DNA of 64,000 bases, taken from assembly GCA_035512495.1 (NCBI GenBank), contig DATKDW010000083.1, positions 6,045-70,044 on the forward strand. The letters run 5' to 3'. Under the pieces are notes generated by a model, which saw only the letters and a program-made list of their open reading frames with translations, searched no databases and had not been told where the DNA came from. Position 1 is the stretch's first letter. The number at the start of each line of letters is the position of its first letter. This document shows, piece after piece, positions 8,029 to 52,929 of the stretch. Made by a program: the position numbers and the translations under genes. Source of the stretch: Acidimicrobiales bacterium (lineage in GTDB: Bacteria; Actinomycetota; Acidimicrobiia; Acidimicrobiales; CADCSY01).

Positions 8029-8050
8029 CGTCGACCGAGGCCAGCACGGG

Positions 8051-11238: not shown

Positions 11239-11386
11239 GGAGCTGTTCGACGAGCTGAACGTTCTGCTGCGCTCAAGGGAGTTGCCTGGCATCGACTCGC
11301 ACATGAGGAATAGGTAACGGCCGGGCCGCGGCGCGTGCTCCTGGGACGGCGCCGCCGACGGGTGCTCCTACGGACCGCTGATCGGG

Positions 11387-11743: not shown

Positions 11744-11990
11744 TGCAAACCTCCTCGACTGTCTGGGTCAGTCGATTCCCACCCGACGGAACAAGACAGG
11801 ACCCGAGCGACTGCCTCGCCTTAGATCCGGGCTGGGAACACGGATCGCAACGCAACCTAGCCGACGCACCTCTCCTCGCACCGAGAACGCAGACTGCTTC
11901 CTTCCGCGAGCGCGACCGATCGACGGTTCCAGCAGCTCCGCGCCGAGGCCGCACCGAGCGGGCAAGCAGAACGCGCCGACCGATCCCGGC

Positions 11991-12170
11991 GAGGCCGCGG
12001 AACAGATCCTGTTCGTTGGCGACAACCTGCACGACGACATCGGCGGAGCAACCAGGTCCGGCCTGCCGTCAGTCCACATGGATCGAGACGGGTCCTGCCA
12101 GGCTGACGACCACGCCGACATCGCGAGTTGCGTCAGAGACCTCAGATCGCTGCTGGCGTGGCTTGGCTGA
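11991..12170 (+). pseudogene. HAD-superfamily hydrolase, C-terminal remnant
   Basis: A frame not listed in the ORF track reads EAAEQILFVGDNLHDDIGGATRSGLPSVHMDRDGS...LAWLG*. This is HAD motif IV (VGDxxxDIxGA). No start codon or motifs I-III were recognisable upstream. Confidence 0.5.
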
Positions 12171-12285
12171 GCAGCACCGATCACCCGCGCAATGGACCCG
12201 GGCCTCGCGTGCTCCAATCCGTACCGATCGGCGCGTAGCGCGCCGCCGCCCACGAGATGGCATCTGACACCAGAGGGATGGCGGC

Positions 12286-12582
12286 TCAGGCGTCAGGGGC
12301 GGGCTGCCGGAGTGCGTGGCTATCGAGCTCCATTTGGTAGATGCGCTTGAAGTCCTCGATTGCTGCCAACGCTCGCTTCCCATGCGGGCTTGCCGCCATC
12401 TCGCCCTCCTGTCCTTTCACGGGTTCGAAAGAGTGCAGGACGATCTTTTCGAGGAGCTGTCCGAGGGTGAGTCCTTCGAGCTCGGCGAGCGCCTTCAGGA
12501 CCTTCACCATGCTCCGCTCCATCCGGACGCCGATTTGGACGCGATCGACGCGCGTCGGAGCATTCCGTTGGGTCGGGACCAT
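12286..12582 (-). CDS. ribbon-helix-helix (CopG/antitoxin-like) small protein
   Basis: RVQIGVRMERSMVKVLKALAELEGLTLGQLLEKIVL has the beta-strand plus two-helix RHH pattern. 98 aa. Confidence 0.5.
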   Translation of the reverse strand: MVPTQRNAPTRVDRVQIGVRMERSMVKVLKALAELEGLTLGQLLEKIVLHSFEPVKGQEGEMAASPHGKRALAAIEDFKRIYQMELDSHALRQPAPDA

Positions 12583-12622
12583 GGGACCAAGTTACCGTAG
12601 TCCCACCGACCTAGGAGAGACC

Positions 12623-13447
12623 ATGTCCGATCCGTACGCGCTCGCGGTGCACAGCTCCTTCGACGAAGTCGAACCGCAGTTCCATGCCGTGCTGGAAGCG
12701 AGCCTTGACCCCCGTGGTCCAGATGCGCTCTTCGACATCGTCGCTGGGCTCGGACTCGAGAGCGGCGCGGTCGTGCTCGACGCCGGGTGCGGCCGCGGGC
12801 GACAGTCACTGGAGCTGGCGCGGCGATTCGGCTTCGACGTGCTCGGCGTCGACCCCGTCGACCGGCACGCGCCAATCGACAAACAGCTCGCCGAGCGACC
12901 CCTGACGGCCGGATCGGTGCGCTTCACCGAGGGGAGATTCGAGCAGCTGCCAGTCGAGGACTCCTCGATCGACCTGATCTTCTGCCGTGACTCGATCATG
13001 TTCGGTGACCTCGCCGTGACGGCAACCGAGTTCCACCGCGTCTTGCGTCCCGGCGGCCGAGGTCTCGTCTACCTCGTCCTCACCGGTCCACTGATGAGCG
13101 AGCCCGAGGCCGACCACTTCGACCATCTCATGCGCGGCCGAACGCTTCGCCCGGCCGAGATCGACGCAGCACTTGAACGCAACGGTCTCACTGTCAACGA
13201 CCGCATCGACTACAGCGGCGAGTGGGCGGAACGATCCCAGGAGCAGGACGGAGAACCTGCTCGACGACTCCTGTTCGCATCTCGACTACTGAGAAGGCCC
13301 GATCACTACATCCAGAAGTTCGGACAAGACCACTACGACATCATGCTCGGCGACTGCCTCTGGCACGTCTACCGCATGATCGGGAGACTCTCCGGCTACG
13401 CCTGCACCTTCACGCGACCGTTGGCTGCTTCTCCGCCGCCCGAGTAG
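12623..13447 (+). CDS. class I SAM-dependent methyltransferase
   Basis: ATG 12623 is preceded by AGGAGA. Motif I is VVLDAGCGRGRQSLELA, followed by IDLIFCRDSIMF and LRPGGRGLV. Confidence 0.85.
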   Translation: MSDPYALAVHSSFDEVEPQFHAVLEASLDPRGPDALFDIVAGLGLESGAVVLDAGCGRGRQSLELARRFGFDVLGVDPVDRHAPIDKQLAERPLTAGSVRFTEGRFEQLPVEDSSIDLIFCRDSIMFGDLAVTATEFHRVLRPGGRGLVYLVLTGPLMSEPEADHFDHLMRGRTLRPAEIDAALERNGLTVNDRIDYSGEWAERSQEQDGEPARRLLFASRLLRRPDHYIQKFGQDHYDIMLGDCLWHVYRMIGRLSGYACTFTRPLAASPPPE

Positions 13448-13505
13448 AGCCGCCATTGATCGCCAAGGTCGGCGAGACCGAGCAACTGATGCCGCACCGA
13501 GCGCG

Positions 13506-13625
13506 CGCTCCATAATCCGCATCGGCTCCTGCACTTGACCCGAGCAGAACGGCGCTTCTCCAGCGGCGATCGGGACGGCGGGTGCTAGCCAGGCGAGTCC
13601 TCGCGATCGGCACTTCGGCTGCGGG
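13506..13625 (+). repeat. intergenic repeat family, copy B (long form, with the 13-mer)
   Basis: CGCTCCATAATCC is followed 28 nt later by GAACGGCGCTTCTCCAGCGGCGATCGGGACGG...GCGATCGGCACTTCGGCTGCGGG. The CGGCAC end faces the stop (13642) of a minus-strand ORF. Confidence 0.6.
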
Positions 13626-13641
13626 ACCGAGATCAGTCGAT

Positions 13642-14022
13642 CTAGATGAGATGGCCCTCAAAGAACTCGGAGACGTTGTCGAAGCCGGCGGCGGTCAACA
13701 TGCGCTCCTCCTGGGGTGCTGGGTCGGGTGCGGCATCCCGGGTGACGACCGCCAGCACAGCACCTGCGGCTTCGGCCTCAGCTACCGCTCGCACTGCCAC
13801 CTCCGAGTCGATGTTTCCGAGGATGCAGACCGGTCCGCCAGGCGCATAGACCGGCGGCGCAGGCACGAGCATCGCCGTGACCCCTGCGAGCTCCACCTCG
13901 GCAAAACCGACCTCCGCTGGCTGGGAAGGGTCCAGAGGACACACCCACCAACGCGAGACAACGGTCAGTCCGAGGTCCGACAGCATCTGACGCTTTGCGG
14001 TGTCCTGGCGCGCGGTCACCAC
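13642..14022 (-). CDS. hypothetical protein (possibly the chimeric 3' part of a decayed gene)
   Basis: A 126-aa ORF with no recognisable motif. It overlaps the out-of-frame tail of the APH-like ORF 13778..14374. Confidence 0.3.
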   Translation of the reverse strand: MVTARQDTAKRQMLSDLGLTVVSRWWVCPLDPSQPAEVGFAEVELAGVTAMLVPAPPVYAPGGPVCILGNIDSEVAVRAVAEAEAAGAVLAVVTRDAAPDPAPQEERMLTAAGFDNVSEFFEGHLI

Positions 14023-14058
14023 CCGGACTCGGACCGGTCGGGCGAGGGGCTACGGGCC

Positions 14059-14374
14059 AGGGGAAGGGGTACGCCTCGCAAGGGTTGCCCATGGCGACTG
14101 CCTCGGGGATGGCCAGCGGCAACTGGGGGCGTGCCCAGTCGAGCCAGCGGTGGTGGGCTTCGATCGCCTCGTAGCTCGACGCGAAGCTCGGCGCCCGAGG
14201 AAGCCGTAGGACCAAGTCATGACCGAGCCGGAAGATGGCGTTCACGGTCCCGGACGACCGGAGACGCCGCAGCGGCAGCCCTCGCCAGCGAGGGAACTGG
14301 GTGTCGACGAGAGAGCGCGCGAGGGAGTCGTCGATGGGAACCTCGTCGCCGTGGAGGGGAGTGTGATCGGTCAT
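14059..14374 (-). pseudogene. APH-family phosphotransferase, N-terminal lobe only (frameshifted or truncated)
   Basis: The first 105 or so aa of ORF 13778..14374 (SGTVNAIFRLGHDLVLRLPR...LPLAIPEAVAMGNPCEAYPFPW) look like an APH N-lobe. After that the frame turns to G/R/P-rich nonsense, and no HxDLxxxN catalytic loop appears in any frame. Confidence 0.45.
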
Positions 14375-14396
14375 AGACTGGCCTACAGCACCGGTG

Positions 14397-14855
14397 TCAC
14401 CGAACAGGGCTCCCGGCGCTCTCGACCGTTCTGAGGAAGGTCAGGCTCGGCCAATCGATCGTGAGTCCCTCGCCATCATCAAGCGCCACCCACCGACCGG
14501 CGTAGAAGTTGAGAACCTCCGCACACGGGGTCGGTTCCCCGTGCGTCCAGCGGCGAAGGTGCTCTCCGACCACGTGCTCAGCCCTGTCGATGCCGCCGCG
14601 GTTCTGCGCGATCACCGCGCGACCGGGCTTGGTCCGCTTGCGACCGGTGCTCCTGAAGGTCGCCCCCGCGGCGACGCTGCCCCAGAAGCCATCATCGATG
14701 CCGACGGTACCTTCGACCAGCAACTGGAGGAGGTCGTGCGGCATGCCGCCGCGGCCGAGGGCCATCGGGGTGCCGGGGATCCTGGTTCGCTTCCCTCGAA
14801 CTGCCTCCCAGTACGAAAGGCGGTCCTCCACCATCTTGAAGAAGGTGATGCGCAC
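14397..14855 (-). CDS. hypothetical protein
   Basis: A 152-aa ORF of normal composition with a GTG start. No family was recognised. Confidence 0.45.
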   Translation of the reverse strand: MRITFFKMVEDRLSYWEAVRGKRTRIPGTPMALGRGGMPHDLLQLLVEGTVGIDDGFWGSVAAGATFRSTGRKRTKPGRAVIAQNRGGIDRAEHVVGEHLRRWTHGEPTPCAEVLNFYAGRWVALDDGEGLTIDWPSLTFLRTVESAGSPVR

Positions 14856-14901
14856 GAACCGCCACCGTAGGAGCGACTACCTATCACCGACACCAAATAT
14901 C

Positions 14902-14952
14902 GAACGCGGCCGCCTCTCCGGCGAGAAGGATCGGCGCGTCGCGAGCGGTCAA
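14902..14952 (+). repeat. intergenic repeat family, short copy I
   Basis: GAACGCGGCCGCCTCTCCGGCGAGAAGGATCGGCGCGTCGCGAGCGG shares the GAACGSSGC...CTCC.GCG...GATCGGC blocks. It lies 3' of the GT2 gene (stop 14961). Confidence 0.4.
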
Positions 14953-14960
14953 GTCTTCTG

Positions 14961-15749
14961 TCAGGTCGGAGGTGACTCGCAAGCGGCGATCAGAGACGGC
15001 CCGTCGAGCGCTCCCACCTCAGATCGGAAGCGGGTCAGGATCGACTCGTATCTCTCGCGGGCACCTGGGATGCCTCCGAAGTGGGGTGCGTGATGCTCGA
15101 GGGCCCACTCGTAGAGCGGGTGAGAGCGATCATCGCTGGTCACGACGCCCGCGAGGCTTGCCCTGCCCCGGTGAATGAGATACCCGTCGGCTGCGAAAGG
15201 GAAGTTCTCGGCAGCAAGGCCAGCCTGCTGGGCGGCTGCGAGGAGCTCGAACGACGGGTCACCATCGTCCCGGAAGGTGGGTGCACCAGGGTGCCAGATC
15301 TGCATGGGATCGATGAGCAGGCTGTACAGCTCCAAGCGGTGCATCTCATGCCATGGATCCCAGTGGCGCTCGCCGACGATCGCGGCGCCGCTCCCAGCGA
15401 CGGCCAGTGCCTCACGGAGCACGTCGCCACGGCGTATGACCACATCGGAGTCGAGGATCCACACGTAGCGGGGCGGTGTCGGTTGCTCGACAAGCTCTCC
15501 CATCGCCTGGTTCAGGGCTGGGCCGTGGTGAGTGTTCTCGTCGTTGGCGAGCAGTCGGCAGAGGCCTGCCTCGGACGCTTCGGCGAGCAGCCGACCTGAC
15601 CCGTCGCTCGAGCCGTTGTCCACCACAACCACCTCGACGTCATCGTCGAGGACGCGGTGTAGCGACCAAAGAAGCAGCGCGGTGAACTCGATGGTGTTGA
15701 ACGACACGGTGACGACGCTGACCCGGCCTTGACCGATGCTCCCGGACAC
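14961..15749 (-). CDS. glycosyltransferase family 2
   Basis: VSVVTVSFNTIEFTALLLWSL...VVVVDNGSSDGS is the classic GT2 N-terminus. A DSD motif occurs in WILDSDVV. Confidence 0.8.
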   Translation of the reverse strand: MSGSIGQGRVSVVTVSFNTIEFTALLLWSLHRVLDDDVEVVVVDNGSSDGSGRLLAEASEAGLCRLLANDENTHHGPALNQAMGELVEQPTPPRYVWILDSDVVIRRGDVLREALAVAGSGAAIVGERHWDPWHEMHRLELYSLLIDPMQIWHPGAPTFRDDGDPSFELLAAAQQAGLAAENFPFAADGYLIHRGRASLAGVVTSDDRSHPLYEWALEHHAPHFGGIPGARERYESILTRFRSEVGALDGPSLIAACESPPT

Positions 15750-15823
15750 AGAACGAGTATCGACGACGATCGCACCTATCGGGCACTCAGTATCCCCACG
15801 AGCTGGCGCATCGCCTCCGCCCC

Positions 15824-15880
15824 GATCGGCGCATCTCCAGCGTCGATCAGGACGGATGGCGGCTAGGAATCCTGGGCCAG
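15824..15880 (+). repeat. intergenic repeat family, copy C (not adjacent to a gene 3' end)
   Basis: GATCGGCGCATCTCCAGCGTCGATCAGGACGGATGGCGGCTAGG matches the 5' half of copy B (GGCGCTTCTCCAGCGGCGATCGGGACGGCGGGTGCTAGCC). Confidence 0.5.
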
Positions 15881-15997
15881 CCGCGTGTCTGAGTGATGGT
15901 CTCGAGCACGCCGGAGCGCTCTGCCCGCTCAGCAGATCGACGTGCGGATCCGTCGGTGCGAGACTGGGACGACACGGCCATGGATCAGGAGCGCACC

Positions 15998-16393
15998 ATG
16001 TCGGGCCTCGCCATCATCACCGAAGCGTGCATCGGCGTGAAGGACCGTGCGTGTGTCGACGTGTGCCCGGTCCAGTGCATCTACGAGCTCGATCAGGCCA
16101 AGGGTGTGTTGTTCTCCGAGGACGAAGCCGGCAGCGGCGAGATCGAGAACACCCACGCGCCCGACCCGGACTCCATCGGGGTGTTCGGGGACAGCCTGCT
16201 GTACGTGAACCTGGAGGAGTGCACGTCGTGCACCGCCTGCTACCAACCCGACGTCTGCCCTGTCGGTGCGATCTATACCGAGGAAGCCGTGCCCGACGGC
16301 ACCGATCCCAAGGCCTACAACGCCGAGGACCCGCACAAGGGCCACGACCACACCTTCTTCATTCAGCTCAGCCGCGACGTCTTCGCCGACTGA
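15998..16393 (+). CDS. ferredoxin, two Fe-S cluster motifs separated by an unusually long insertion
   Basis: MSGLAIITEACIGVKDRACVDVCPVQCIY carries the Cx7Cx3CP motif. About 50 aa later comes CTSCTACYQPDVCPVGAIY. ATG 15980 is an alternative start. Confidence 0.75.
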   Translation: MSGLAIITEACIGVKDRACVDVCPVQCIYELDQAKGVLFSEDEAGSGEIENTHAPDPDSIGVFGDSLLYVNLEECTSCTACYQPDVCPVGAIYTEEAVPDGTDPKAYNAEDPHKGHDHTFFIQLSRDVFAD

Positions 16394-16688
16394 CGGTGCC
16401 GGCCCGCCATGAGCGGAAACCGGGCAGCCTGGGGGCGGTGTGCCCCGAAGCGAGCGCGATCGCCGGCATCCGATGCGTCGTGTCGACCCCCCTTGAGACC
16501 GAGAGCAGCAACCTCGACGAGGTGTCGCTGTCGCCTCCAGCTGGCCCACGGCTTGACCGTGACGGAAGACGGGCGTTGATCACGGGCCTCCTGTCGGCGA
16601 TGCCAGGCCACTCGGCGGGCCGTCTGAGCAGGACGCCACACGCCTCTGGGCGATGTCTACCGATCGCGGAAGCCTCAAATGCGGACGC

Positions 16689-16745
16689 CTATCGGCGGCA
16701 CCGATCTCCAGAGCGCGTGGTCAGCACGCCGGCACTGCCGCGGTG
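16689..16745 (+). repeat. intergenic repeat family, degenerate copy D
   Basis: CTATCGGCGGCACCGATCTCCAGAGCGCG...CGCCGGCACTGCCGCGG lies 3' of the minus-strand relE (stop 16766), in the same gene-relative orientation as copies A, B and I. Confidence 0.4.
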
Positions 16746-16765
16746 AGCCTCTCCGCGCCGACTGG

Positions 16766-17029
16766 TCAGGATCTGTAGACGTCTCGGCGGTGACCCACGC
16801 TCACCACGAGCACGACGAGGCGACGGTCGTGCACCTCGTAGATGATCCGATAGTCACCGACCCGAACTCGGTAGGCGCGCTCCTCGCCCTTGAGGGCCAC
16901 ACACCCCGGCGGACGAGGCTCGTCTGCCAGCAGGTCGATCGCAGCTCGGATCCGCTGCTGCTCACGCCTGGGCAAACGGGCAAGCGACTTCACCGCTCGA
17001 CGCGCGATGTGGACCTCATAGCGGCTCAC
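16766..17029 (-). CDS. relE: type II toxin, RelE/ParE superfamily
   Basis: 87 aa, with YRVRVGDYRIIYEVHDRRLVVLVVSVGHRRDVY. It overlaps the upstream antitoxin gene by 4 bp. Confidence 0.85.
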   Translation of the reverse strand: MSRYEVHIARRAVKSLARLPRREQQRIRAAIDLLADEPRPPGCVALKGEERAYRVRVGDYRIIYEVHDRRLVVLVVSVGHRRDVYRS

Positions 17030-25778: not shown

Positions 25779-26321
25779 TCAGCAGCGGCTGGGCGCGGTG
25801 CCCGGACCGGGCCCGGCCCGTGCAGGCAGCTCACCGCCGGTGGTGGTCGGCGGCGATGATCGGGTCCGCGCACCGTCCGGCGAAGGCTGCGGTGTGGGTG
25901 CGAAGCGTCGTTCGGCGAGGGGGTCGTACTTCGCCATGCGCTTGGCGACGCTTCGGCGTAGGGGTTGGACGGTGGTGGTCACCGCGGTCCCCCACTGGTT
26001 GAAGAACGTCAGGGTGGCGTTGGGGTCGCCGCTGATGCGCCACCCGTGGTTGTGGATGTTGTTGTGGCAGGTCCAGCACAACGCCACCAAGTTGTCGAGG
26101 TCCGTCGGTCCGCCTCGTGACCAGTGCCAGAGGTGGTGGATCTGGTGGATGGGCCCGCCGCAGCAGCGGCAGCGACCGTCACGCCGCGTCACCAGCCGGC
26201 GCAGCCAGCGGGGAACCACCCGCTCGGCGCGCCCGACCCCGACCGCTTCGCCGTTGATCGTCATCACGAACTGCACCCGACCGCCGCACGCGAACCGCAA
26301 GAGCACGCAGTTGTGCTGCAC
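25779..26321 (-). CDS. HNH endonuclease domain protein, corresponding only to the C-terminal part of the actinobacterial DUF222-HNH family
   Basis: RRLVTRRDGRCRCCGGPIHQIHHLWHWSRGGPTDLDNLVALCWTCHNNIHNHGW is an HNH motif. The usual 250-aa or so DUF222 N-terminal region is absent. The tail is P/T/G-rich. Confidence 0.6.
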   Translation of the reverse strand: MQHNCVLLRFACGGRVQFVMTINGEAVGVGRAERVVPRWLRRLVTRRDGRCRCCGGPIHQIHHLWHWSRGGPTDLDNLVALCWTCHNNIHNHGWRISGDPNATLTFFNQWGTAVTTTVQPLRRSVAKRMAKYDPLAERRFAPTPQPSPDGARTRSSPPTTTGGELPARAGPGPGTAPSRC

Positions 26322-36948: not shown

Positions 36949-37012
36949 CACCGCGGCACCAGCCCCCGGGGGACCGCGAGCAGGCGCGGCGCCAGGGGCC
37001 AGGAGGGCGCAG

Positions 37013-39400
37013 ATGCCCGCCGTCCTCGGCACCTCCACTAGACAGGGGGCCGTGATCGCCGACGCGCTGGCCGGCAAGCGCCTCTTCGTCACCGGCTCGA
37101 CCGGCTTCCTCGGCACCGCGCTGGTGGAGCGGCTGCTGCGCTCCGTGCCGGGCTGCGAGCTGGTGCTCCTGATCCGCCCGGGCCGACAGCGAACCGTCGA
37201 GCAGCGCCTCGCCCGCGAGCTCATCCGCAACGATGCCTTCGACCGCCTCCGCGCCGAGCTGGGCGAAGGCTTCGACGACGAGGTGGCTCGCCGGGTGCAA
37301 GTGGTGGCCGGCGACGTGAGCAGCGACGGGCTCGGGCTCGACGACGCCGGAAGAGAGCTGCTCGCCACGTGCGACACGGTCATCCACTCCGCCGCCACCG
37401 TCGCCTTCGACTCGCCCCTCGACCGCGCCGTGGAGGTCAACCTCCTCGGACCCTCCCGCATCGCCACCACCCTCAACGAGATCGGGTCCACCGCCCACCT
37501 CGTCGCCGTCTCGACCTGCTACGTGGCCGGGAACCGTCGGGGGCGGGCGCCCGAGCTGCCGCTGCTCGACCAGCCGTTCACCCCCGACGTCGACTGGCGG
37601 GCCGAGGTGGCGGCTGCCCGCCGCACCCGAGCCGACGTGGAGGCAGCCAGTCGCACCCCAGCGATGCTCGCCCGCTTCCGCAAGGAGGCTCGTGGCGAGC
37701 TCGGTGCCGCCGGCACGCCGCTCCTGGCCTCCAAGGGCGAGAAGCGGCGCGACGCCTGGGTGGCCAGCGAGCTGGTCGAGGCGGGCAGGGCACGTGCCCG
37801 GTCCCTCGGCTGGCCCGACGCCTACGCCTACACCAAGGCGCTCGGCGAGCAGGCCCTGCTCGAGACGCGCGGTGCGGTGCCGGTCACCATCGTGCGTCCC
37901 TCGATCATCGAGTCGGCCCTCGCCGAACCCAGCCCGGGCTGGATCCGAGGCTTCCGCATGGCCGAACCGGTCATCATCAGCTACGCCCAGGGCCTGCTGA
38001 AGGAGTTCCCCGGGATCCCCGAGGGCGTGGTCGACGTCATCCCCGTCGACCTGGTCGTCGCCGCGGTCATCGACGCTGCCGCCCGGGGCCCCGAGGAGCA
38101 GCCCGCCGTGGTGCAGGTGGCATCCGGCTCCGCCAACCCGCTCGGCTACCGCCACCTCGTCGACCTGGTGCAGGGCTGGTTCTCGGAGCACCCCCTCTAC
38201 GACGCCAAGGGCCAGCCGATCCTCGTGCCGGAGTGGACCTTCCCCGGCCGCGGTCGCGTGCAGAAGCAGCTGGAGCGGGCCTCGTCGATCATGGACCGCG
38301 CCGAGAAGGCCCTCGCCACCCTCCCGCTGCGGGGCACCCAGGCCCGGTGGTCGGCCACCCTCGACGACAAGCGGGCCGACGTCGACCGTGCCCTCACCTA
38401 CGTCGAGCTCTACGGCGCCTACGCCGAGACCGAGGCCGAGTTCTCCGTCGACCGCCTCCTCGAGCGCTTCCGCTCGCTCGACGACGACGACCGTGCCACG
38501 TTCTGCTTCGACCCCGGAGTTGTCGACTGGGACCACTACGTCACGTCGATCCACCTCCCGTCGGTGGTGGCCCACGCACGGGTCAAGACCACGCCCGGCG
38601 CCACCAACCGCGAGAGCCGCAGCTCCCGCCTGCGCCGCCAGGTGCTGGCACCCGAGCGCCACCTCGCCGCCTTCGACCTCGAGAACACCCTGATCGCCTC
38701 GAACGTGGTCGAGTCGTACTCCTGGCTGGCGACCAGGCGGCTGGGGCCCGACGACCGCCTCCGCTTCGTGCTCAAGACGCTCCGCGAGGCACCGGGGCTG
38801 CTCGCCCTCGACCGCAAGGACCGGGGCGACTTCCTTCGCCACTTCTACCGGCGCTACGAGGGCGCGCCGGTCCGCCAGCTCGACGAGGACGCCGCCGAGC
38901 TGTTCAGCCGCCTGATCCTCACCAAGTCGTTCCCCGCCGGCTTCCGGCGTGTCCGGGAGCACCGGGCGCTCGGCCACCGCACGGTGCTCATCACCGGTGC
39001 GCTCGACATCGTGGTGGAGCGCAACCTCGCCCCCCTCTTCGACGACATCGTGTGCGCCCGCATGGGCGTGGTCGACGGGCGCTACACCGGCGAGCTCACC
39101 TCGGCGCCCCCCACCGGCGAGGCGCGCGCCCAGGCCATGGCCGACTACGCCGAGGCCGAGGGACTCGAGCTCGAGCAGTCGGTCGCCTACGCCGACTCGG
39201 CCAGCGACCTGCCGATGCTCGAAGCCGTCGGCTTCCCGGTGGCGGTCAACCCCGAGACCCGCCTGTCGGCCATCGCCCGCAAGCGGGGCTGGCTGGTCGA
39301 GGACTGGACCAAGGCCCCGGGCGCCCCCCGACCCCTGCTCCCCATCGGCCCGATGACCCGCCGCACGTCGTTCCGCCGCCCCGCCGGGGCACGACGATGA
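37013..39400 (+). CDS. fusion protein: fatty acyl-CoA/ACP reductase (NAD_binding_4 plus FAR_C-like) fused to a HAD-IB hydrolase domain
   Basis: AGGAGG lies 6 nt before ATG 37013. LFVTGSTGFLGTALVERLL and YAYTKALGEQ (YxxxK) mark the reductase. The C-terminal HAD-IB part has AAFDLENTL (motif I as DxE) and YADSASDLPML. Confidence 0.75.
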   Translation: MPAVLGTSTRQGAVIADALAGKRLFVTGSTGFLGTALVERLLRSVPGCELVLLIRPGRQRTVEQRLARELIRNDAFDRLRAELGEGFDDEVARRVQVVAGDVSSDGLGLDDAGRELLATCDTVIHSAATVAFDSPLDRAVEVNLLGPSRIATTLNEIGSTAHLVAVSTCYVAGNRRGRAPELPLLDQPFTPDVDWRAEVAAARRTRADVEAASRTPAMLARFRKEARGELGAAGTPLLASKGEKRRDAWVASELVEAGRARARSLGWPDAYAYTKALGEQALLETRGAVPVTIVRPSIIESALAEPSPGWIRGFRMAEPVIISYAQGLLKEFPGIPEGVVDVIPVDLVVAAVIDAAARGPEEQPAVVQVASGSANPLGYRHLVDLVQGWFSEHPLYDAKGQPILVPEWTFPGRGRVQKQLERASSIMDRAEKALATLPLRGTQARWSATLDDKRADVDRALTYVELYGAYAETEAEFSVDRLLERFRSLDDDDRATFCFDPGVVDWDHYVTSIHLPSVVAHARVKTTPGATNRESRSSRLRRQVLAPERHLAAFDLENTLIASNVVESYSWLATRRLGPDDRLRFVLKTLREAPGLLALDRKDRGDFLRHFYRRYEGAPVRQLDEDAAELFSRLILTKSFPAGFRRVREHRALGHRTVLITGALDIVVERNLAPLFDDIVCARMGVVDGRYTGELTSAPPTGEARAQAMADYAEAEGLELEQSVAYADSASDLPMLEAVGFPVAVNPETRLSAIARKRGWLVEDWTKAPGAPRPLLPIGPMTRRTSFRRPAGARR

Positions 39401-40587
39401 AGGCACTGCGCTTCGAGCGCTCGGTCCCGCGCTTCGCCGCCGCCCGTCTCGCCGGGTCGCTGGCCCATGGCCGGGGCGCCACGGTCGGACCCCTGCGCCT
39501 CCGCGATGTCGACCTTCCCGACCTCCCCGGCCCCGGCTGGCAGCGCGTGAGGCCCCGTCTCGCCGGCATCTGCGGCTCCGACCTCGCCACCATCGACGCC
39601 ACCTCGAGCCGCTGGTTCGAGCCCATCGTCAGCTTCCCCTTCGTTCCGGGCCACGAGGTCGTGGGCGACCTCGACGACGGCACGCGTGTGGTGCTCCAAC
39701 CCGTGCTCGGCTGCGCCGCTCGCGGCATCGAGCCGCCGTGCGATGCGTGCACCTCGGGCCAGGTGGGGCGCTGCGCCAACATCGCCTTCGGCCACCTCGA
39801 TCCCGGCCTGCAGACCGGCTACTGCGCCGCCACCGGCGGAGGCTGGTCCACCGCCCTCGTGGCCCACGACAGCCAGCTGCACCGGGTGCCCGACGCCCTC
39901 AGCGACGAGGCAGCGGTGATGGTGGAGCCCACCGCCTGCGCCGTGCGTGGCGCGTTCCGAGCCGGCACCGACGCCACCACCGTGGCCGTCATCGGCGCCG
40001 GCACCCTCGGCCTGTGCACCATCGCCGCCCTGCGCCGGCTGGTGCTCACCGACGACCAGCACATCGTCGCCGCCGCCAAGCACCCCGAGCAGCGGGCCCT
40101 CGCGCGCGAGCTCGGGGCCACCACCGTGGTCGAGCCCGACCAGCTCGACCGGGTGGCCCGCCGCCTCACCGGCTCCATGGCCACCGGCGACGGCGAGATC
40201 GGACGCCTCACCGGCGGCGTCGACGTCACCGTCGACTGCGTGGGCAGCGCCGACAGCCTGGCCCAGGCCCTCGCCGTCACCGCTCCCGGCGGCCGCATCG
40301 TGATGGTCGGCATGCCCGGCCGGCTCACCGTCGACCTCACCCCGCTGTGGCACCGCGAGATCGAGCTGGTCGGGGCCTACGCCTACGGCGTGGAGCCCAC
40401 CGGCCGACCCACCTTCGACCTCGCATTCGAGCTGGTGGCCGACGCCGGCCTCGAACGCCTCGTCTCGGCCACCTACCCCCTCGATCGCTTCACCGACGCC
40501 ATCGCCCACGCCGCCGAGGCAGGTCGCCGCGGCGCGGTCAAGATCGCCTTCGACCTCCGCACCGAGAAGGAAAGAGACCGACTGTGA
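39397..40587 (+). CDS. zinc-type medium-chain alcohol dehydrogenase family protein
   Basis: ATGA overlap with the previous stop. GICGSDL and PFVPGHEVVG are the Zn ligands. The Rossmann motif is VAVIGAGTLGL. Confidence 0.8.
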   Translation: MKALRFERSVPRFAAARLAGSLAHGRGATVGPLRLRDVDLPDLPGPGWQRVRPRLAGICGSDLATIDATSSRWFEPIVSFPFVPGHEVVGDLDDGTRVVLQPVLGCAARGIEPPCDACTSGQVGRCANIAFGHLDPGLQTGYCAATGGGWSTALVAHDSQLHRVPDALSDEAAVMVEPTACAVRGAFRAGTDATTVAVIGAGTLGLCTIAALRRLVLTDDQHIVAAAKHPEQRALARELGATTVVEPDQLDRVARRLTGSMATGDGEIGRLTGGVDVTVDCVGSADSLAQALAVTAPGGRIVMVGMPGRLTVDLTPLWHREIELVGAYAYGVEPTGRPTFDLAFELVADAGLERLVSATYPLDRFTDAIAHAAEAGRRGAVKIAFDLRTEKERDRL

Positions 40588-42182
40588 CTCGTAAGACGGC
40601 ACGGCCAGGCTTCGTGCTGGAGGTCGACCGCTCGACCCCGCCGACGATGTTCATGGACGGTGAGGGCTTCCGCCTCGAGCGCCTGCCAGTGGGGCGCAGC
40701 CGGATCATCTACCCCGGCGAGCCGCTGCCGACCCTGCGCGACCCCGAGGCCGCCATCCGTCACGCCCTGCTGAACCCGGTGGGCCAGGACCCGCTGCCGG
40801 CCCAGCTCTTCCCCGGCATGAAGCTCACGATCGCCTTCGACGACATCTCCTTGCCCCTGCCGAAGATGCGCCGGCCCGACATCCGCCAGCGCGTGATCGA
40901 GGCGGTGCTCGACCTGGCCGCCGAGGCCGGCGTCGACGACGTCCACATCATCGCCGCCCTGGCGCTGCACCGGCGCATGACCGAGGCCGAGCTGCGCCAC
41001 TGCCTCGGCGACCGCATCTACGACGCCTTCTCCCCCGACGGCACCCTCTACAACCACGACGCCGAGGACCCCGACGGCATGGCCCACCTGGGCGAGACCG
41101 AGCAGGGCGAGGAGGTCGAGATCAACAAGCGGGCCGCCGAGTCCGACCTGCTGGTCTACGTCAACATCAACCTCGTCTCGATGGACGGCGGCCACAAGTC
41201 CACCGCCACCGGGCTGGCGTCGTACAAGAGCCTGCGCCACCACCACAACGTCAAGACCATGCGCCACAGTCGGTCGTTCATGGACCAGCACCGCTCCGAG
41301 CTGCACTCCTCCAACTGGCGCATGGGCGAGGTGATCCGCAAGGCGGGCATCAAGATCTTCCAGATCGAGACCACCCTCAACAACGACACCTTCCCGGCCC
41401 CATTCGACTTCCTCCAGAAGCGGGAGTGGGAGTGGACGGCACGTGACCGCGTGACCTTCGTGGCAGCCAAGAAGGGACTCGACACGCTGCCCATGAGCGC
41501 TCGCCGGGCGATCTTCCAGTCGATCGAGGCGCCCCACGACATGACGGGCATCACCGCCGGCGACATCGAGGAGGTCCACGCCATCACCACCCAGCGGGTG
41601 TGGGACCAACAGCTCGTCCAGGTGGAGGGCCAGACCGACATCCTCACCATGGGGCTGCCGTACCTGTGCCCCTACAACGTGAACTCGATCATGAACCCGA
41701 TCCTGGTGGCCTGCCAGGGGCTCGGGTACTTCTTCAACCTGTACCGCAACAAGCCCCTGGTGCGCGAGGGCGGCGTGGTGATCATGACCCACCCCACCCC
41801 CTGGGACTTCCACCCGGTCCACCACCCCAGCTACATCGACTTCTTCGAGCAGGTGCTGGCCGAGACCACCGACCCGGTCGAGATCGAGAAGCGCTTCGAG
41901 ACGTCGTTCGCCGAAGACGAGTGGTACCGCCACCTCTACCGGACGAGCTACGCCTACCACGGCGTGCACCCGTTCTACATGTGGTACTGGTGCGCACACG
42001 CCCTCCAGCACCTCGGCGCGGTGATCATCGTCGGCGGCGACGCCAGGGCGGTGCGCCGCCTCGGCTTCCGCCCCGCCTCCACCATGCGAGACGCGCTCGA
42101 GATGGCCGAGGACACCGTGGGGCGCGACCCATCGGTCACCCACCTCCACGCCCCGCCGCTCCTGGTGGCCGAGGTCAGCTGA
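40584..42182 (+). CDS. LarA-like (lactate racemase N-terminal domain, DUF2088) protein
   Basis: GTGA overlap with the previous stop. LTIAFDDISLPLP, VNINLVSMDGGHKSTATG (a GGxKS-like lysine motif) and about 530 aa in length. Assigned from memory of LarA-family motifs. Confidence 0.6.
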   Translation: MTRKTARPGFVLEVDRSTPPTMFMDGEGFRLERLPVGRSRIIYPGEPLPTLRDPEAAIRHALLNPVGQDPLPAQLFPGMKLTIAFDDISLPLPKMRRPDIRQRVIEAVLDLAAEAGVDDVHIIAALALHRRMTEAELRHCLGDRIYDAFSPDGTLYNHDAEDPDGMAHLGETEQGEEVEINKRAAESDLLVYVNINLVSMDGGHKSTATGLASYKSLRHHHNVKTMRHSRSFMDQHRSELHSSNWRMGEVIRKAGIKIFQIETTLNNDTFPAPFDFLQKREWEWTARDRVTFVAAKKGLDTLPMSARRAIFQSIEAPHDMTGITAGDIEEVHAITTQRVWDQQLVQVEGQTDILTMGLPYLCPYNVNSIMNPILVACQGLGYFFNLYRNKPLVREGGVVIMTHPTPWDFHPVHHPSYIDFFEQVLAETTDPVEIEKRFETSFAEDEWYRHLYRTSYAYHGVHPFYMWYWCAHALQHLGAVIIVGGDARAVRRLGFRPASTMRDALEMAEDTVGRDPSVTHLHAPPLLVAEVS

Positions 42183-43106
42183 GTGGCCGGCCGCCGCCTG
42201 CCCGACCCGGTCCGCCGGCTCCTTCGACCCGGCTTCCCCTGGTCGGCGCCCACCACCCCACTCGGCATCGAGCCGCTCGAGCAGGAGCCCACCACCGGCG
42301 CCCACTACGCCACCGGCTGGGCCCGTCGCCAGCCGGCGCGCTACGCCCGCTTCTTGGTGGTCGAGGGACCCATGAAGGCGGTGGTCCGAGCCCTCGCCGC
42401 GCCCACGGTCCACGGCACCGACCGCCTCGCCGCCCTCGAGGGGTCGGTGATCTTCGCCGCCAACCACCAGAGCCACCTCGACGCGCCGCTCATGCTCACG
42501 ACCATCCCCGAGCCCTGGCGGCACCGCATGGTGGTGGGGGCGGCAGCCGACTACTTCTTCACCAGCCGTGCCCGCTCCGCCCTCTCGGCCCTGGCCATGG
42601 GCGCCTTCCCGATCGAGCGCAGCAAGGTGACCCGCCGCTCGGCCGACCAGGCCGCCGAGCTGCTCGGCAAGGGGTGGAGCCTGCTGATCTTCCCCGAGGG
42701 CGGCCGCAGCCCCGACGGGTGGGCCCAGGACCACCGCGGCGGCGCCGCCTACCTGTCGTCGCGCTGCGGCGTCCCGGTGGTCCCGGTGCACCTCCAGGGC
42801 ACGGGCCGCATCTTCGGCCGGGGCGACACGCGCCCGCGCCCGGGCACCACAAGGGTCACCTTCGGCTCGCCCATGCGGCCCGAGGAGGGCGAGAACGCCA
42901 CTCGGTTCGCCCAGCGGGTCGAGCGGGCCGTCGACGCCCTCGCCGACGAAGCGTCCACCGACTGGTGGTCGGCGCGCCGTCGGGCGGCCAGCGGGGCGAC
43001 ACCCTCGCTCTCGGGACCAGCGACGAGCGGTTGGCGCCGGTCGTGGGCCCTCGGTGACCGCAAGGGCCGGCCGTCTCGCACCCGCCGGCCTTGGCCTGAT
43101 CTGTAG
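42183..43106 (+). CDS. lysophospholipid (1-acyl-sn-glycerol-3-phosphate type) acyltransferase
   Basis: GTG 42183 directly follows the TGA. The HX4D motif is ANHQSHLD, and FPEGGRS is present. Confidence 0.8.
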   Translation: MAGRRLPDPVRRLLRPGFPWSAPTTPLGIEPLEQEPTTGAHYATGWARRQPARYARFLVVEGPMKAVVRALAAPTVHGTDRLAALEGSVIFAANHQSHLDAPLMLTTIPEPWRHRMVVGAAADYFFTSRARSALSALAMGAFPIERSKVTRRSADQAAELLGKGWSLLIFPEGGRSPDGWAQDHRGGAAYLSSRCGVPVVPVHLQGTGRIFGRGDTRPRPGTTRVTFGSPMRPEEGENATRFAQRVERAVDALADEASTDWWSARRRAASGATPSLSGPATSGWRRSWALGDRKGRPSRTRRPWPDL

Positions 43107-51482: not shown

Positions 51483-52904
51483 TCAGTCGGTGCCCGGGCG
51501 GCGGGTCGTCTCGTCGGACGACCCGTCGTGGCCCGCCGGCAGCGCCCGGCGGATCTCCTCGTCGGTCGGCTCCCGGGCCACGTGGGCCTCGGGCGGGAGG
51601 AGCGCGGTGATGGCCGCCATGATCGACTTGGTGTCGACGTCGACATCGTCGCCGGCCACGTGGAACGGCGCGCCGGCTCGCACCGTCACCAGCGGCGGGC
51701 TGGTGAGGTTGAGCACGTTTGGCACCCGGGCGCTGCGGGGCCACACCCGCTCGGTGCCCCACAGCCCGAGCGGCACGATCGGTGCGCCCGACATGGCGGC
51801 GAGGCGGGCCGCCCCCCAGCGGCCGTGCAGCTCGGTGTCGTAGAAGGCCCGGCCCCGCGGGATGGTGCCTTGGGGCATCATCGCCACCAGCTCACCGGCG
51901 GCCAGGGCGCGGGCTGCCTCCACCAACGGCTCGTCGGAGCCGGTGCCCCGCTCGACGCGGATGCCGCCCATGGCACGTGCCAGCTGGCCCACGACCGGGG
52001 CGTCGAAGACCTCCTTCTTGCCGAGGAAGCGCAGCGGCCGCCCCGACCGGGCGACGGCCAGCGCCACCGCGGCGGTGTCGAAGTAGCTGCGGTGGTTGGC
52101 CACCACGATGGCGGGACCCTCGGTGGGGATGTGGTCGGTGCCGTCGATGTCGAAGCGGGCGAAGGGGAAGGCCTCCGGGCGCATGAAGGGCCGCAGCGCC
52201 TGGAACGGCTCGACCCCTGCGAGCTTGGGGACCCCGGGCGGCACGTCGAGGTGGAGCGTCGGCCAGCGGCGCACCGCGGCCAGGATCCGCAGCCGGGGGT
52301 CGGGGTTGACGGCGGTGGGGTGACCCACGGCGGAGAGGAGCGGCGTGTCGTAGATGCTGTCGGAGTACGCCCAGCTCTCGCGCAGGTCGACGCCGTGCTC
52401 CTCGGCCCACGCCCGCACCGCCGCGAGCTTGCCCGGGCCCCACACGAAGCTCCCCACGATCGATCCGTCGTAGAGGCCCTCCGGCGTGCGGCCGTACCTC
52501 GTGGCGATGACGTCGTCGAGACCCAGCGCGTCGGCGAAGGGCTTCACCATGTCGAACGGCGAGGTGGTGGCCAACACCACCGGCCGGCCGGCGAGGCGGT
52601 GCTCGTCCATGATCTCCCTGGCATAGGGCTGCACCGCCCCGGTGAGCACCTTGGCCGCCTCGGTGGCCGCCGCCACCACGGCGTCGGCAGACCATCCGGA
52701 GGCGAAGGAGGCGGCGGCCCGGGCCAGGCCCATGCCCGGCAGGGTCTCGCCCACCGCGTCGAAGAACTTGTAGATCAGGTTCTCGCCCGGGATGTCGCGG
52801 TCGGGCACGACCCCCGCCTGCTTGAGCGCGGCGGTGATGACCGGCCCGCTGGCGCCCTTGAGGATGGTCCGGTCGAGGTCGAAGAACGCTGCACCTGTGG
52901 CCAT
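51483..52904 (-). CDS. fusion protein: HAD-IB hydrolase plus lysophospholipid acyltransferase (PlsC-like)
   Basis: The N-terminus is AAFFDLDRTIL (DxD), followed by YSDSIYDTPLL. The C-terminal half has VANHRSYFD (HX4D) and MPQGTIP. Confidence 0.8.
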   Translation of the reverse strand: MATGAAFFDLDRTILKGASGPVITAALKQAGVVPDRDIPGENLIYKFFDAVGETLPGMGLARAAASFASGWSADAVVAAATEAAKVLTGAVQPYAREIMDEHRLAGRPVVLATTSPFDMVKPFADALGLDDVIATRYGRTPEGLYDGSIVGSFVWGPGKLAAVRAWAEEHGVDLRESWAYSDSIYDTPLLSAVGHPTAVNPDPRLRILAAVRRWPTLHLDVPPGVPKLAGVEPFQALRPFMRPEAFPFARFDIDGTDHIPTEGPAIVVANHRSYFDTAAVALAVARSGRPLRFLGKKEVFDAPVVGQLARAMGGIRVERGTGSDEPLVEAARALAAGELVAMMPQGTIPRGRAFYDTELHGRWGAARLAAMSGAPIVPLGLWGTERVWPRSARVPNVLNLTSPPLVTVRAGAPFHVAGDDVDVDTKSIMAAITALLPPEAHVAREPTDEEIRRALPAGHDGSSDETTRRPGTD

Positions 52905-52929
52905 GGCCCGACGCTACCTCTCACCTCTC

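What the first reader, a model, noticed from the sequence alone, without database searches (positions are those of the whole stretch)
37013..43106. A tightly coupled four-gene operon: acyl reductase-HAD fusion, Zn-ADH, LarA-like protein, PlsC acyltransferase
All junctions are overlapping or abutting: ATGA at 39397, GTGA at 40584 and TGA-GTG at 42180-42185. This argues for one translationally coupled unit.

The domain set combines four functions.
- Fatty acyl-thioester reduction (FAR-type NAD_binding_4 with YxxxK).
- A phosphatase-type HAD-IB domain.
- A Zn alcohol dehydrogenase.
- A glycerolipid acyltransferase with HX4D.

This predicts synthesis or remodelling of an unusual lipid, for example a fatty alcohol/aldehyde-derived, ether-type or wax-type glycerolipid. 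The LarA-like member has no obvious role in any textbook lipid pathway. I am not aware of a characterised pathway with this composition.
Basis: partly seen in the sequence, partly recalled or inferred. Interest (0 to 1): 0.75.

Follow-up and report, generated by a model that had tools for sequence, protein, structure and literature searches.

The report
Likely ether-lipid operon with nickel-enzyme homolog
This conserved four-gene operon of an Acidimicrobiales bacterium is the actinobacterial counterpart of the myxobacterial 'elb' ether-lipid genes, and its odd lactate-racemase-like member matches the never-explained ElbC protein, which suggests a nickel-cofactor enzyme works in bacterial ether-lipid synthesis.

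Summary
Four + strand genes (37013-43106) with overlapping or abutting junctions encode a FAR-HAD fusion, a Zn-ADH, a LarA homolog and a PlsC acyltransferase, and every domain call passes HMM tests.

The order FAR-HAD > [ADH] > LarAH > PlsC is kept in all evaluable loci from 80 Acidimicrobiia species. PlsC is present in 72/72, FAR+HAD in 58/58 and ADH in 55/71.

That is not correct.
- The LarA homolog belongs to LarAH group 14, whose PlsC/HAD/ADH/reductase context was already tabulated in 2020 as 'unknown function'.
- Its sister group 15 includes MXAN_1529, which is elbC of the Myxococcus xanthus ether-lipid operon elbABCDE.
- The window's FAR, HAD, LarAH and PlsC are 35-49% identical to the ElbD N-terminus, ElbB, ElbC and the ElbD acyltransferase domain of an Anaeromyxobacter elb cluster.
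- Rubrobacter, whose membranes are dominated by ether/ester lipids, carries PlsY > FAR-HAD > ADH > LarAH.

The best reading is a split elb-type pathway for 1-O-alkylglycerol lipids. The role of the single-histidine LarA homolog is untested. I propose transient C2 oxidation that enables ether-bond formation. It is a new member of a known kind and a useful lead.

The parts
37001..37007 (+). Shine-Dalgarno-like AGGAGGG, 5 nt upstream of the g1 start codon
   Evidence: Read directly from the sequence.
37013..39400 (+). g1, a 795-aa fusion. The N-terminal part is a fatty acyl-CoA reductase-like domain (aa ~12-534; GSTGFLG at 28, YAYTK at 271). The C-terminal part is a HAD-IB domain (aa ~550-765; motif I FDLENT at 554, DSASD at 728). 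It corresponds to the ElbD N-terminal domain plus ElbB.
   Evidence: Pfam and NCBIfam. PDB 7eoz fatty acyl-CoA reductase, E=4e-62 over residues 12-534. The FAR part is 39% identical to the Anaeromyxobacter ElbD-like N-terminus and the HAD part 37% to the ElbB-like protein. They are 40% and 43% identical to the Rubrobacter FAR-HAD fusion.
39397..40587 (+). g2, a 396-aa Zn-dependent medium-chain dehydrogenase of the polyol/ketose-reductase type. It is an accessory member of the operon.
   Evidence: Pfam. The nearest PDB entries include a ketose reductase, sorbitol, xylitol and threonine 3-dehydrogenases. It is 47.5% identical to the Rubrobacter operon ADH. It is present in 55/71 evaluable loci.
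40584..42182 (+). g3, a 532-aa single-histidine LarA homolog (LarAH group 14, ElbC-like). D87, H129, K205 and H221 are retained. The loop carrying the second catalytic His is deleted.
   Evidence: NF052592 at 910 bits. Alignment to PDB 9q2u. AF2 model with pLDDT 89.5 and TM-scores to 9q3k of 0.76 (query-normalised) and 0.84 (target-normalised). It is 66% identical to Afer_1430 and YM304_22240, 59% to Frankia LarAH14 and 49% to the Anaeromyxobacter ElbC-like protein. It is the most conserved operon member, with 39% invariant columns.
42183..43106 (+). g4, a 307-aa PlsC/AGPAT-family acyltransferase (NHQSHLD at 94, FPEGGRS at 170). It corresponds to the ElbD C-terminal acyltransferase domain.
   Evidence: Pfam PF01553. 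PDB 5kym PlsC, E=6e-12. It is 35% identical to the ElbD-like acyltransferase domain. It is present downstream of LarAH in 72/72 evaluable loci.

Best explanation
The operon is the Actinomycetota (LarAH group 14) version of the elb-type aerobic ether-lipid pathway. Its likely product is 1-O-alkyl-glycerol(-phosphate), the building block of mixed ether/ester lipids.

Shown:
- Homology of three of the four genes (four protein parts) to the elb components. The FAR domain matches the ElbD N-terminus, HAD matches ElbB, LarAH matches ElbC, and PlsC matches the ElbD acyltransferase domain.
- Strict synteny in Acidimicrobiia.
- The same operon in Rubrobacter, which is rich in ether lipids.

Inferred steps:
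1. The FAR domain reduces acyl-CoA or acyl-ACP to fatty aldehyde or alcohol.
2. The acyltransferase (PlsC here, PlsY in Rubrobacter) acylates the glycerol-3-phosphate backbone.
3. The LarA homolog, holding a nickel-pincer nucleotide on K205/H221, abstracts the C2 hydride with its single catalytic His129. This transiently creates the 2-keto (DHAP-like) intermediate that ether-bond chemistry needs, as in AGPS-type acyl-for-alkyl exchange. The hydride is then returned to the same face, so no second histidine is needed.
4. The polyol-type Zn-ADH acts as an auxiliary ketoreductase for alkyl-DHAP, or as an aldehyde reductase. It is dispensable in some lineages.
5. The HAD domain removes the phosphate to give alkyl(acyl)glycerol.

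Step 3 is a hypothesis, at about 0.2-0.25. The overall pathway assignment is the claim scored here.
For: - elbABCDE corresponds to MXAN_1531 through MXAN_1527, and elbD is MXAN_1528. MXAN_1529, which is therefore elbC, is listed as a LarAH Group 15 member.
- The elb operon is described as NAD-epimerase / HAD / unknown / FAR-ACS-ACP-AGPAT / NAD-epimerase, and elbD disruption abolishes alkyl and vinyl ether lipids.
- Anaeromyxobacter oryzae has exactly this architecture, with a Lar_N protein in the ElbC position.
- The window proteins are 39%, 37%, 49% and 35% identical to the corresponding parts.
- Window g3 and groups 14/15/16 fall in one NCBIfam equivalog.
- Rubrobacter radiotolerans carries PlsY > FAR-HAD > ADH > LarAH, at 40-57% identity to the window proteins. 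Rubrobacterales have about 46% ether-linked core lipids.
- The same four genes occur in a further lineage, L087, and in 80 Acidimicrobiia species.
- The LarAH keeps the NPN-binding Asp, Lys and His and one catalytic His. By its group 14 signature it lacks the hydroxyacid carboxylate binders.
- The Frankia homolog showed no activity on the seven hydroxyacid reactions assayed.
- The nearest structures are single-His LarAHs thought to bind phosphorylated polyol-like ligands in a triose-phosphate gene context.
- The ADH is of the secondary-alcohol/ketose type.
Against: - I found no lipid data for any Acidimicrobiia.
- ElbD homologs do not always predict ether lipids. Pontiella is an example.
- The operon lacks the ACS and ACP domains and the SDRs ElbA and ElbE.
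- elbC has never been tested on its own, and the elbB phenotype was attributed to polarity.
- No larB, larC or larE is present in the 64-kb window, so cofactor supply is unverified.
- The HAD motif I here is DxE, not DxD.
- To my knowledge, other group-14 carriers (Frankia, Kribbella, Nocardioides) are not reported to make ether lipids.
- Some elb-like clusters contain only elbD and elbB homologs.
Confidence: 0.65

Rival explanations
1. A neutral-lipid (wax ester or triacylglycerol) module. FAR makes fatty alcohol for wax esters. PlsC plus HAD act as a Kennedy-pathway acyltransferase and phosphatidate phosphatase. The LarA homolog and ADH serve an unrelated or auxiliary redox function.
For: The FAR domain resembles a solved fatty acyl-CoA reductase. 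Acidimicrobiia such as Ilumatobacter and Microthrix carry several WS/DGAT genes, and AGPAT-HAD fusions have been proposed to supply diacylglycerol. A separate HAD-PlsC fusion lies in the same window.
Against: No WS/DGAT gene is in the operon or among its conserved neighbours. The LarA homolog is the most conserved member and was the query defining every locus; FAR, HAD and PlsC accompany it in all evaluable loci. The homologous elb operon controls ether lipids, not wax esters. Rubrobacter, with the same operon, is dominated by ether/ester lipids.
Confidence: 0.12
2. The LarA homolog is a true C2 epimerase of the glycerol backbone, or of another 2-hydroxy lipid intermediate. The operon then makes lipids with unusual stereochemistry (sn-glycerol-1-phosphate type) or an unusual backbone such as long-chain diols.
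For: Every characterised LarA homolog inverts a C2 stereocentre bearing a hydroxyl group. A single-His enzyme has been suggested to act as a unidirectional epimerase. The stereochemistry of Rubrobacter ether lipids is undetermined, and Myxococcus TG-1 is named as 'rac'.
Against: One of the two bases needed for inversion is deleted and no Asn replaces it. No evidence exists for G1P-type lipids in these taxa. M. xanthus VEPE and AEPE are named as sn-glycero-3-phosphoethanolamines in the review.
Confidence: 0.1
3. The LarA homolog acts on a soluble substrate (a hydroxyacid or sugar phosphate), as its database name 'NPN-dependent hydroxyacid isomerase' says. Its place in a lipid operon would then be an accident of conserved synteny.
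For: The NCBIfam name. The nearest solved relatives sit in a glycolytic gene context. The region is a syntenic core-genome stretch with ddl, murF, gltB and acn nearby.
Against: The linkage with HAD, FAR and an acyltransferase recurs in two phyla with different gene orders and fusions. That is hard to explain by inherited synteny. Carboxylate-binding residues are absent, and the Frankia enzyme was inactive on the seven hydroxyacid reactions assayed.
Confidence: 0.05

Closest known systems
Myxococcus xanthus elbABCDE ether-lipid biosynthesis operon (MXAN_1531-1527; Lorenzen et al. 2014), and the identical cluster in Anaeromyxobacter oryzae
   Same: It has the same functional set. This comprises a FAR-like reductase, a HAD phosphohydrolase, a single-His LarA homolog (ElbC, LarAH group 15) and an AGPAT-like acyltransferase, all on one strand. 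Pairwise identities to the window proteins are 35-49%.
   Different: In myxobacteria the reductase and acyltransferase are ends of one 1593-aa protein that also holds acyl-CoA synthetase and ACP domains, and two SDR genes (ElbA, ElbE) flank it. Here the reductase is fused to the HAD, the acyltransferase is free-standing, there is no ACS or ACP, and a Zn-ADH replaces the SDRs.
Rubrobacter FAR-HAD / Zn-ADH / LarAH operon. From my memory of the abstract of Sinninghe Damste et al. 2023, Syst Appl Microbiol 46:126404, this is the putative 1-O-alkyl glycerol phosphate operon.
   Same: It has the same FAR-HAD fusion, Zn-ADH and group-14 LarAH in the same order, at 40-57% identity. The host order has about 46% ether-linked core lipids.
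   Different: Rubrobacter has PlsY upstream and no PlsC downstream. Its HAD motif I is the canonical DVDGT, whereas the Acidimicrobiia have DLENT. I could not read that paper, so its gene-level description is unverified here.
LarA / nickel-pincer-nucleotide racemase superfamily, especially the single-histidine LarAHs LarA_Sp and LarA_Bw (PDB 9q2u, 9q3k, 9q3j)
   Same: It has the two-domain LarA fold, with TM-scores of 0.76 (query-normalised) and 0.84 (target-normalised) to 9q3k. The NPN-tethering Lys, the Ni-binding His, the ribose Asp and one catalytic His are conserved. The protein is long, about 500-530 aa.
   Different: The second catalytic position is deleted rather than replaced by Asn. 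The Arg/Lys at the LarA R75 position is Leu. The gene context is lipid rather than glycolytic. Sequence identity is only about 24%.
Eukaryotic and myxobacterial FAR / GNPAT / AGPS / alkyl-DHAP reductase route to ether lipids
   Same: The logic is a fatty alcohol supply, a PF01553-family acyltransferase on a C3 phosphate backbone, and a need for a C2 keto intermediate plus a ketoreductase (for the pathway outline; the AGPS chemistry is from my own knowledge).
   Different: The operon has no AGPS flavoenzyme homolog. A LarA homolog occupies the unexplained slot.

Membership tests
elb-type ether-lipid gene cluster | ElbC-type protein (LarAH group 14/15/16) | tested here: met
   NF052592 at 910 bits against a cut-off of 740. 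49% identical to the A. oryzae ElbC-position protein. MXAN_1529 is both elbC and a Group 15 member.
elb-type ether-lipid gene cluster | HAD phosphohydrolase (ElbB) | tested here: met
   The g1 C-terminal domain is 37% identical over 211 aa to the ElbB-like protein. TIGR01490 scores above its cut-off.
elb-type ether-lipid gene cluster | FAR1-like reductase and AGPAT-like acyltransferase (the ends of ElbD) | tested here: met
   39% identity over 370 aa and 35% over 204 aa to the ElbD-like protein. Here they are separate polypeptides.
elb-type ether-lipid gene cluster | Acyl-CoA synthetase (AMP-binding) and ACP domains of ElbD, and the SDR ElbE | tested here: not met
   No AMP-binding, PP-binding or SDR gene is in the operon or among the most frequent conserved neighbours (the top cluster representatives were inspected, not all annotated). 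A Zn-ADH is present instead.
elb-type ether-lipid gene cluster | The product is an alkyl ether glycerolipid | not testable with these tools
   This needs lipid analysis. The only support is indirect, from the Rubrobacter and Myxococcus phenotypes.
LarA / NPN-dependent isomerase superfamily | Two-domain LarA fold | tested here: met
   AF2 model with pLDDT 89.5. Foldseek E=7e-34 to 9q3k, with TM-scores of 0.76 (query-normalised) and 0.84 (target-normalised).
LarA / NPN-dependent isomerase superfamily | NPN-binding residues: Asp (LarA D72), tethering Lys (K184) and Ni-binding His (H200) | tested here: met
   D87, K205 and H221 are invariant in 18 sequences of groups 14 and 15.
LarA / NPN-dependent isomerase superfamily | Two catalytic histidines (H108 and H174) | tested here: not met
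   H129 is present. The H174-equivalent loop is deleted (alignment; group 14 signature).
LarA / NPN-dependent isomerase superfamily | 2-hydroxyacid carboxylate binders (R75, Q295, K298) | tested here: not met
   The R75 position is L90. The group 14 signature shows I/L, a gap and N at these positions.
LarA / NPN-dependent isomerase superfamily | NPN biosynthesis genes larB, larC and larE in the same genome | not testable with these tools
   None was found in the 64-kb window.
Alcohol-forming fatty acyl-CoA reductase (FAR) | NAD_binding_4 Rossmann domain with GxxGxxG and YxxxK, plus a C-terminal 'Sterile' domain | tested here: inconclusive
   NAD_binding_4 scores 198 bits, with GSTGFLG and YAYTK present. 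The Sterile domain scores only 25.2 bits against a cut-off of 35.4. PDB 7eoz aligns over residues 12-534.
HAD-IB phosphatase | Catalytic motif I DxDxT | tested here: not met
   Motif I is FDLENT, with Glu at D+2, invariant in 70 Acidimicrobiia. Rubrobacter and Anaeromyxobacter have DVDGT. The overall family score passes.
PlsC/AGPAT acyltransferase | HX4D and FPEGxR motifs | tested here: met
   NHQSHLD at 94 and FPEGGRS at 170. PF01553 at 71.5 bits.

The most novel reading that the evidence does not exclude
ElbC/LarAH14 is the missing ether-bond-forming enzyme of the aerobic bacterial pathway. It would be a nickel-pincer-nucleotide enzyme that works on a lipid (lysophosphatidate-type) substrate rather than a hydroxyacid. 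It would use transient C2 oxidation, or hydride shuttling to the fatty aldehyde, to swap an acyl for an alkyl chain. Membrane-lipid synthesis in Acidimicrobiia, Rubrobacteria and myxobacteria would then depend on nickel.
Probability: 0.2. Interest if true: 0.85.

Novelty: new member of a known kind. Interest (0 to 1): 0.6.

Why it matters
Three things follow if the reading is right.

1. Acidimicrobiia would be predicted producers of 1-O-alkylglycerol ether lipids. This class is abundant in seawater, freshwater, soils, activated sludge (Microthrix) and sponges (Ca. Poriferisocius). The sources of these environmental biomarkers are debated. Current gene screens use ElbD, Agps and Ger as markers and would miss this split operon.

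2. How the ether bond is made in the ElbD pathway has been unknown since 2014. What single-histidine LarA homologs do is also unknown. These two open questions become one experiment: test ElbC/LarAH14 with the nickel-pincer cofactor on lysophosphatidate plus fatty alcohol or aldehyde.

3. The database name 'NPN-dependent hydroxyacid isomerase' for this family is probably wrong.

Tried and rejected
- A tblastn of the LarA homolog against plasmids gave one weak Streptomyces hit with no annotation.
- Rfam and tRNA scans of the window found nothing.
- The promoter and terminator consensus scan over 36.5-43.6 kb found nothing. It is not suited to this GC content, so the transcription start and any co-transcription with ddl remain open.
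- I looked for larB, larC and larE across the called ORFs of the window and found none.
- I could not read Sinninghe Damste et al. 2023.
- Literature searches linking NPN/LarA with acyltransferase, lipid or FAR returned nothing. ElbC appears in only one searchable paper, as 'unknown function'.
- The 'LarAH15' of the 2024 JBC paper is a Phytophthora gluconate epimerase. It appears to be numbered per protein, not per 2020 group, so it does not inform this family.
- An Archangium group-15-like homolog sits without elb partners, and another lineage has only HAD plus LarAH together. The four-part linkage is therefore not universal.
- I considered a long-chain 1,2-diol pathway and a G3P/G1P racemase. 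I kept them only as low-probability rivals.


Full report
**Observation**

The window is high-GC (about 73% around the locus). I called genes by third-position GC. A frame plot shows four consecutive + strand coding frames between 37.0 and 43.1 kb.
- ddl ends at 36948. An AGGAGGG ribosome-binding site precedes the ATG at 37013.
- ATGA at 39397, GTGA at 40584 and TGA-GTG at 42180-42185 join the genes.
- TAG at 43104-43106 ends g4. A 153-nt gap follows before gltB.

HMM searches confirm every domain.
- g1 has NAD_binding_4 plus a HAD-IB domain.
- g2 is a Zn-dependent medium-chain dehydrogenase.
- g3 has Lar_N and scores 910 bits on NCBIfam NF052592 'LarAH14/15/16' (cut-off 740).
- g4 is a PlsC-type acyltransferase.

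None of the four proteins has a convincing transmembrane segment.

**Conservation**

A scan of one genome per species found at least 597 genomes that encode a relative of g3. The best 80 hits are almost all labelled Acidimicrobiia or unclassified Actinomycetota, at 72-81% identity. An identical protein comes from an Acidimicrobiales MAG. In those 80 loci the order FAR-HAD > [ADH] > LarAH > PlsC on one strand is invariant wherever the contig is long enough.
- PlsC is present in 72/72 evaluable loci.
- FAR and HAD, always fused, are present in 58/58.
- ADH is present in 55/71.

The core is therefore FAR-HAD + LarAH + PlsC, and the ADH is accessory. The LarA homolog is the most constrained member, with 39% invariant columns. 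The FAR and HAD domains have 24-25%, the ADH 19% and PlsC 11%.

The neighbours are housekeeping genes: ddl, a Mur ligase, gltB, aconitase and citrate synthase. In 35 loci a divergent TetR regulator lies immediately upstream. It is absent from this window.

**What was already known about the LarA homolog**

Desguin et al. 2020 split LarA homologs into 25 groups. Group 14 contains Acidimicrobium ferrooxidans, Ilumatobacter, Frankia, Kribbella, Nocardioides and Rubrobacter. Their Table S1 lists its gene context.
- PlsC (COG0204) in 88% of cases.
- HAD (COG0560) in 88%.
- Zn-ADH (COG1063) in 88%.
- Thioester reductase (COG3320) in 50%.
- The function is given as 'Unknown function'.

Window g3 is 66% identical to the two Acidimicrobiia members. 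It is 59% identical to the Frankia protein, which was purified, supplied with cofactor and found inactive in the seven hydroxyacid isomerisation assays run.

The group signature keeps D72, H108, K184 and H200 (L. plantarum numbering). It lacks H174 and the carboxylate binders R75, Q295 and K298. In the window protein the retained residues are D87, H129, K205 and H221. The loop that would carry the second histidine is deleted.

The closest solved structures are the single-histidine LarAHs of Gatreddi et al. 2025. These are NPN-loaded octamers of unknown function in a triose-phosphate gene context. That paper states that groups 14 and 15 lack the His174-equivalent histidine and that none of the LarAHs lacking the second catalytic histidine has been characterised. 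An AlphaFold model (pLDDT 89.5) matches them best, with TM-scores of 0.76 (query-normalised) and 0.84 (target-normalised).

**The link to ether lipids**

Group 15 is the myxobacterial sister group, 52% identical to g3. In Anaeromyxobacter oryzae its gene lies in a five-gene cluster.
- An SDR.
- A HAD.
- The LarAH.
- A 1593-aa protein with NAD_binding_4/Sterile, AMP-binding, PP-binding and Acyltransferase domains.
- A second SDR.

This is exactly the published architecture of the Myxococcus xanthus ether-lipid operon elbABCDE. [quoted passage not shown] The locus tags settle the identity.
- elbA to elbE are MXAN_1531 to MXAN_1527.
- elbD is MXAN_1528.
- MXAN_1529, and Stigmatella STAUR_2303, are listed as Group 15 LarAHs.

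ElbC is therefore a single-histidine LarA homolog.

The window proteins match the Anaeromyxobacter cluster part for part.
- The FAR domain is 39% identical over 370 aa to the ElbD N-terminus.
- HAD is 37% identical to ElbB.
- LarAH is 49% identical over 521 aa to ElbC.
- PlsC is 35% identical to the ElbD acyltransferase domain.

Only one searchable paper mentions ElbC. No searchable paper connects the nickel-pincer cofactor with lipids or acyltransferases.

**A phenotype within the same phylum**

Rubrobacter radiotolerans carries PlsY > FAR-HAD (752 aa) > Zn-ADH > LarAH. Identities to the window proteins are 40%, 43%, 47.5% and 57%. [quoted passage not shown] 2023, as cited). From memory, that paper's abstract also mentions a putative operon for 1-O-alkyl glycerol phosphate that resembles the elb operon. 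I could not obtain the paper. A further unplaced lineage has the same four genes as the window.

**Mechanism**

The gene-level assignment is a split, rearranged elb-type pathway that makes 1-O-alkylglycerol lipids. It rests on homology, on synteny in two phyla and on two phenotypes. I put it at about 0.65. The steps below are inferred.
- The FAR domain supplies fatty aldehyde or alcohol. In Myxococcus an elbD-dependent aldehyde was seen, but no alcohol.
- The acyltransferase loads the glycerol-3-phosphate backbone. In Rubrobacter a PlsY gene occupies the acyltransferase slot; PlsY enzymes make 1-acyl-G3P (established knowledge). This hints that 1-acyl-G3P is the precursor.
- For the LarA homolog I propose transient hydride abstraction from C2 by the nickel-pincer cofactor. 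This would give the 2-keto intermediate that acyl-for-alkyl exchange requires in AGPS chemistry (own knowledge). The hydride would return to the same face.
- That proposal would explain why one histidine suffices, why the carboxylate binders are gone, why the partner most often linked to it is a phosphatase-type HAD (88-100% in groups 14-16), and why the nearest relatives seem to bind phosphorylated polyols.
- A variant is intermolecular hydride shuttling from the backbone to the fatty aldehyde. This reaction type was recently shown for another NPN enzyme family.
- The ADH belongs to the sorbitol/ketose/threonine dehydrogenase type, which acts on secondary alcohols. It fits an alkyl-DHAP reductase better than a fatty aldehyde reductase. 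It is missing in 16 of 71 evaluable loci.
- The HAD domain would release alkyl(acyl)glycerol. In Acidimicrobiia its motif I is an invariant D-x-E rather than D-x-D.

I rate the specific LarAH mechanism at about 0.2-0.25.

**Caveats**
- I found no lipid data for Acidimicrobiia.
- ElbD homologs do not always predict ether lipids.
- elbC has not been tested genetically on its own.
- The operon has no ACS or ACP domain.
- NPN biosynthesis genes are absent from the window, and I could not check the rest of the genome.
- The four-part linkage is not universal in myxobacteria.

**Verdict**

The locus is a new member of a known kind.

Its value is the cross-link it exposes. The orphan LarAH groups 14-16 and the orphan ElbC are the same protein family. 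This yields a direct, testable hypothesis for the unknown ether-bond step. It also marks Acidimicrobiia, including sponge symbionts and Microthrix, as likely ether-lipid producers that ElbD-based screens overlook.

Noticed in passing
window 51486-52913 (-): A second, separate HAD-IB + PlsC acyltransferase fusion (476 aa) with a canonical DxD motif. It is the type discussed as an AGPAT-HAD 'PlsC-like' protein in Rhodococcus and marine Actinomycetota. A homolog lies a few kb downstream of the operon, on the opposite strand, in 9 related loci.
   Followed up: partly
window 38672-38689 (g1 aa 554-559): HAD motif I is FDLENT, with Glu instead of the second Asp, and this is invariant in 70 Acidimicrobiia. 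The motif III Lys position is Arg. Rubrobacter FAR-HAD and Anaeromyxobacter ElbB have DVDGT. From memory, enolase-phosphatase E1 is an active HAD with DxE, so this need not mean inactivity.
   Followed up: partly
window 40584-40616: The public annotation of the identical protein (P0001, 522 aa) starts 10 codons downstream. The conserved N-terminal RPGFVLEV motif of homologs lies upstream of that start, so the GTG at 40584 that overlaps the ADH stop is the better start.
   Followed up: yes
L001-L080, immediately upstream of the FAR-HAD gene; window 36949-37012: In 35 related loci a divergently transcribed TetR-family regulator abuts the operon. This window has none. Here ddl ends 64 nt upstream on the same strand, so regulation or co-transcription may differ.
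   Followed up: partly
window 1-17000: A lower-GC stretch (about 0.66 against 0.72-0.75) with weaker codon bias. It encodes two class I methyltransferases, a sulfotransferase-like protein, two GNAT acetyltransferases, an APH-type kinase and a GT2 glycosyltransferase. It may be an acquired surface-modification island.
   Followed up: no
L009, L010, L014, L015 (Ca. Poriferisocius and uncultured Acidimicrobiales); L067 (Ca. Microthrix) and related L053, L057, L065, L075: Sponge-associated and Microthrix-type lineages carry the operon without the Zn-ADH. A recent sponge ether-lipid survey that used ElbD, Agps and Ger as queries does not mention Acidimicrobiia.
   Followed up: partly
L082 10001-11602 (Archangium sp.): A group-15-like LarA homolog stands without HAD or ElbD partners. 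It sits next to a fatty-acid desaturase, an amine-oxidase-type flavoprotein, a metallophosphoesterase and an RND efflux system.
   Followed up: no
NCBIfam NF052592 (hit on window 40584-42182): The family name 'NPN-dependent hydroxyacid isomerase, LarAH14/15/16' is not backed by any activity. The one tested member was inactive on hydroxyacids. 'LarAH15' in the 2024 JBC paper appears to be a different protein, a Phytophthora gluconate epimerase.
   Followed up: yes
window 25782-26321 (-): A small HNH endonuclease-domain ORF (180 aa) sits between an M3 peptidase gene and a stretch with no called gene.
   Followed up: no
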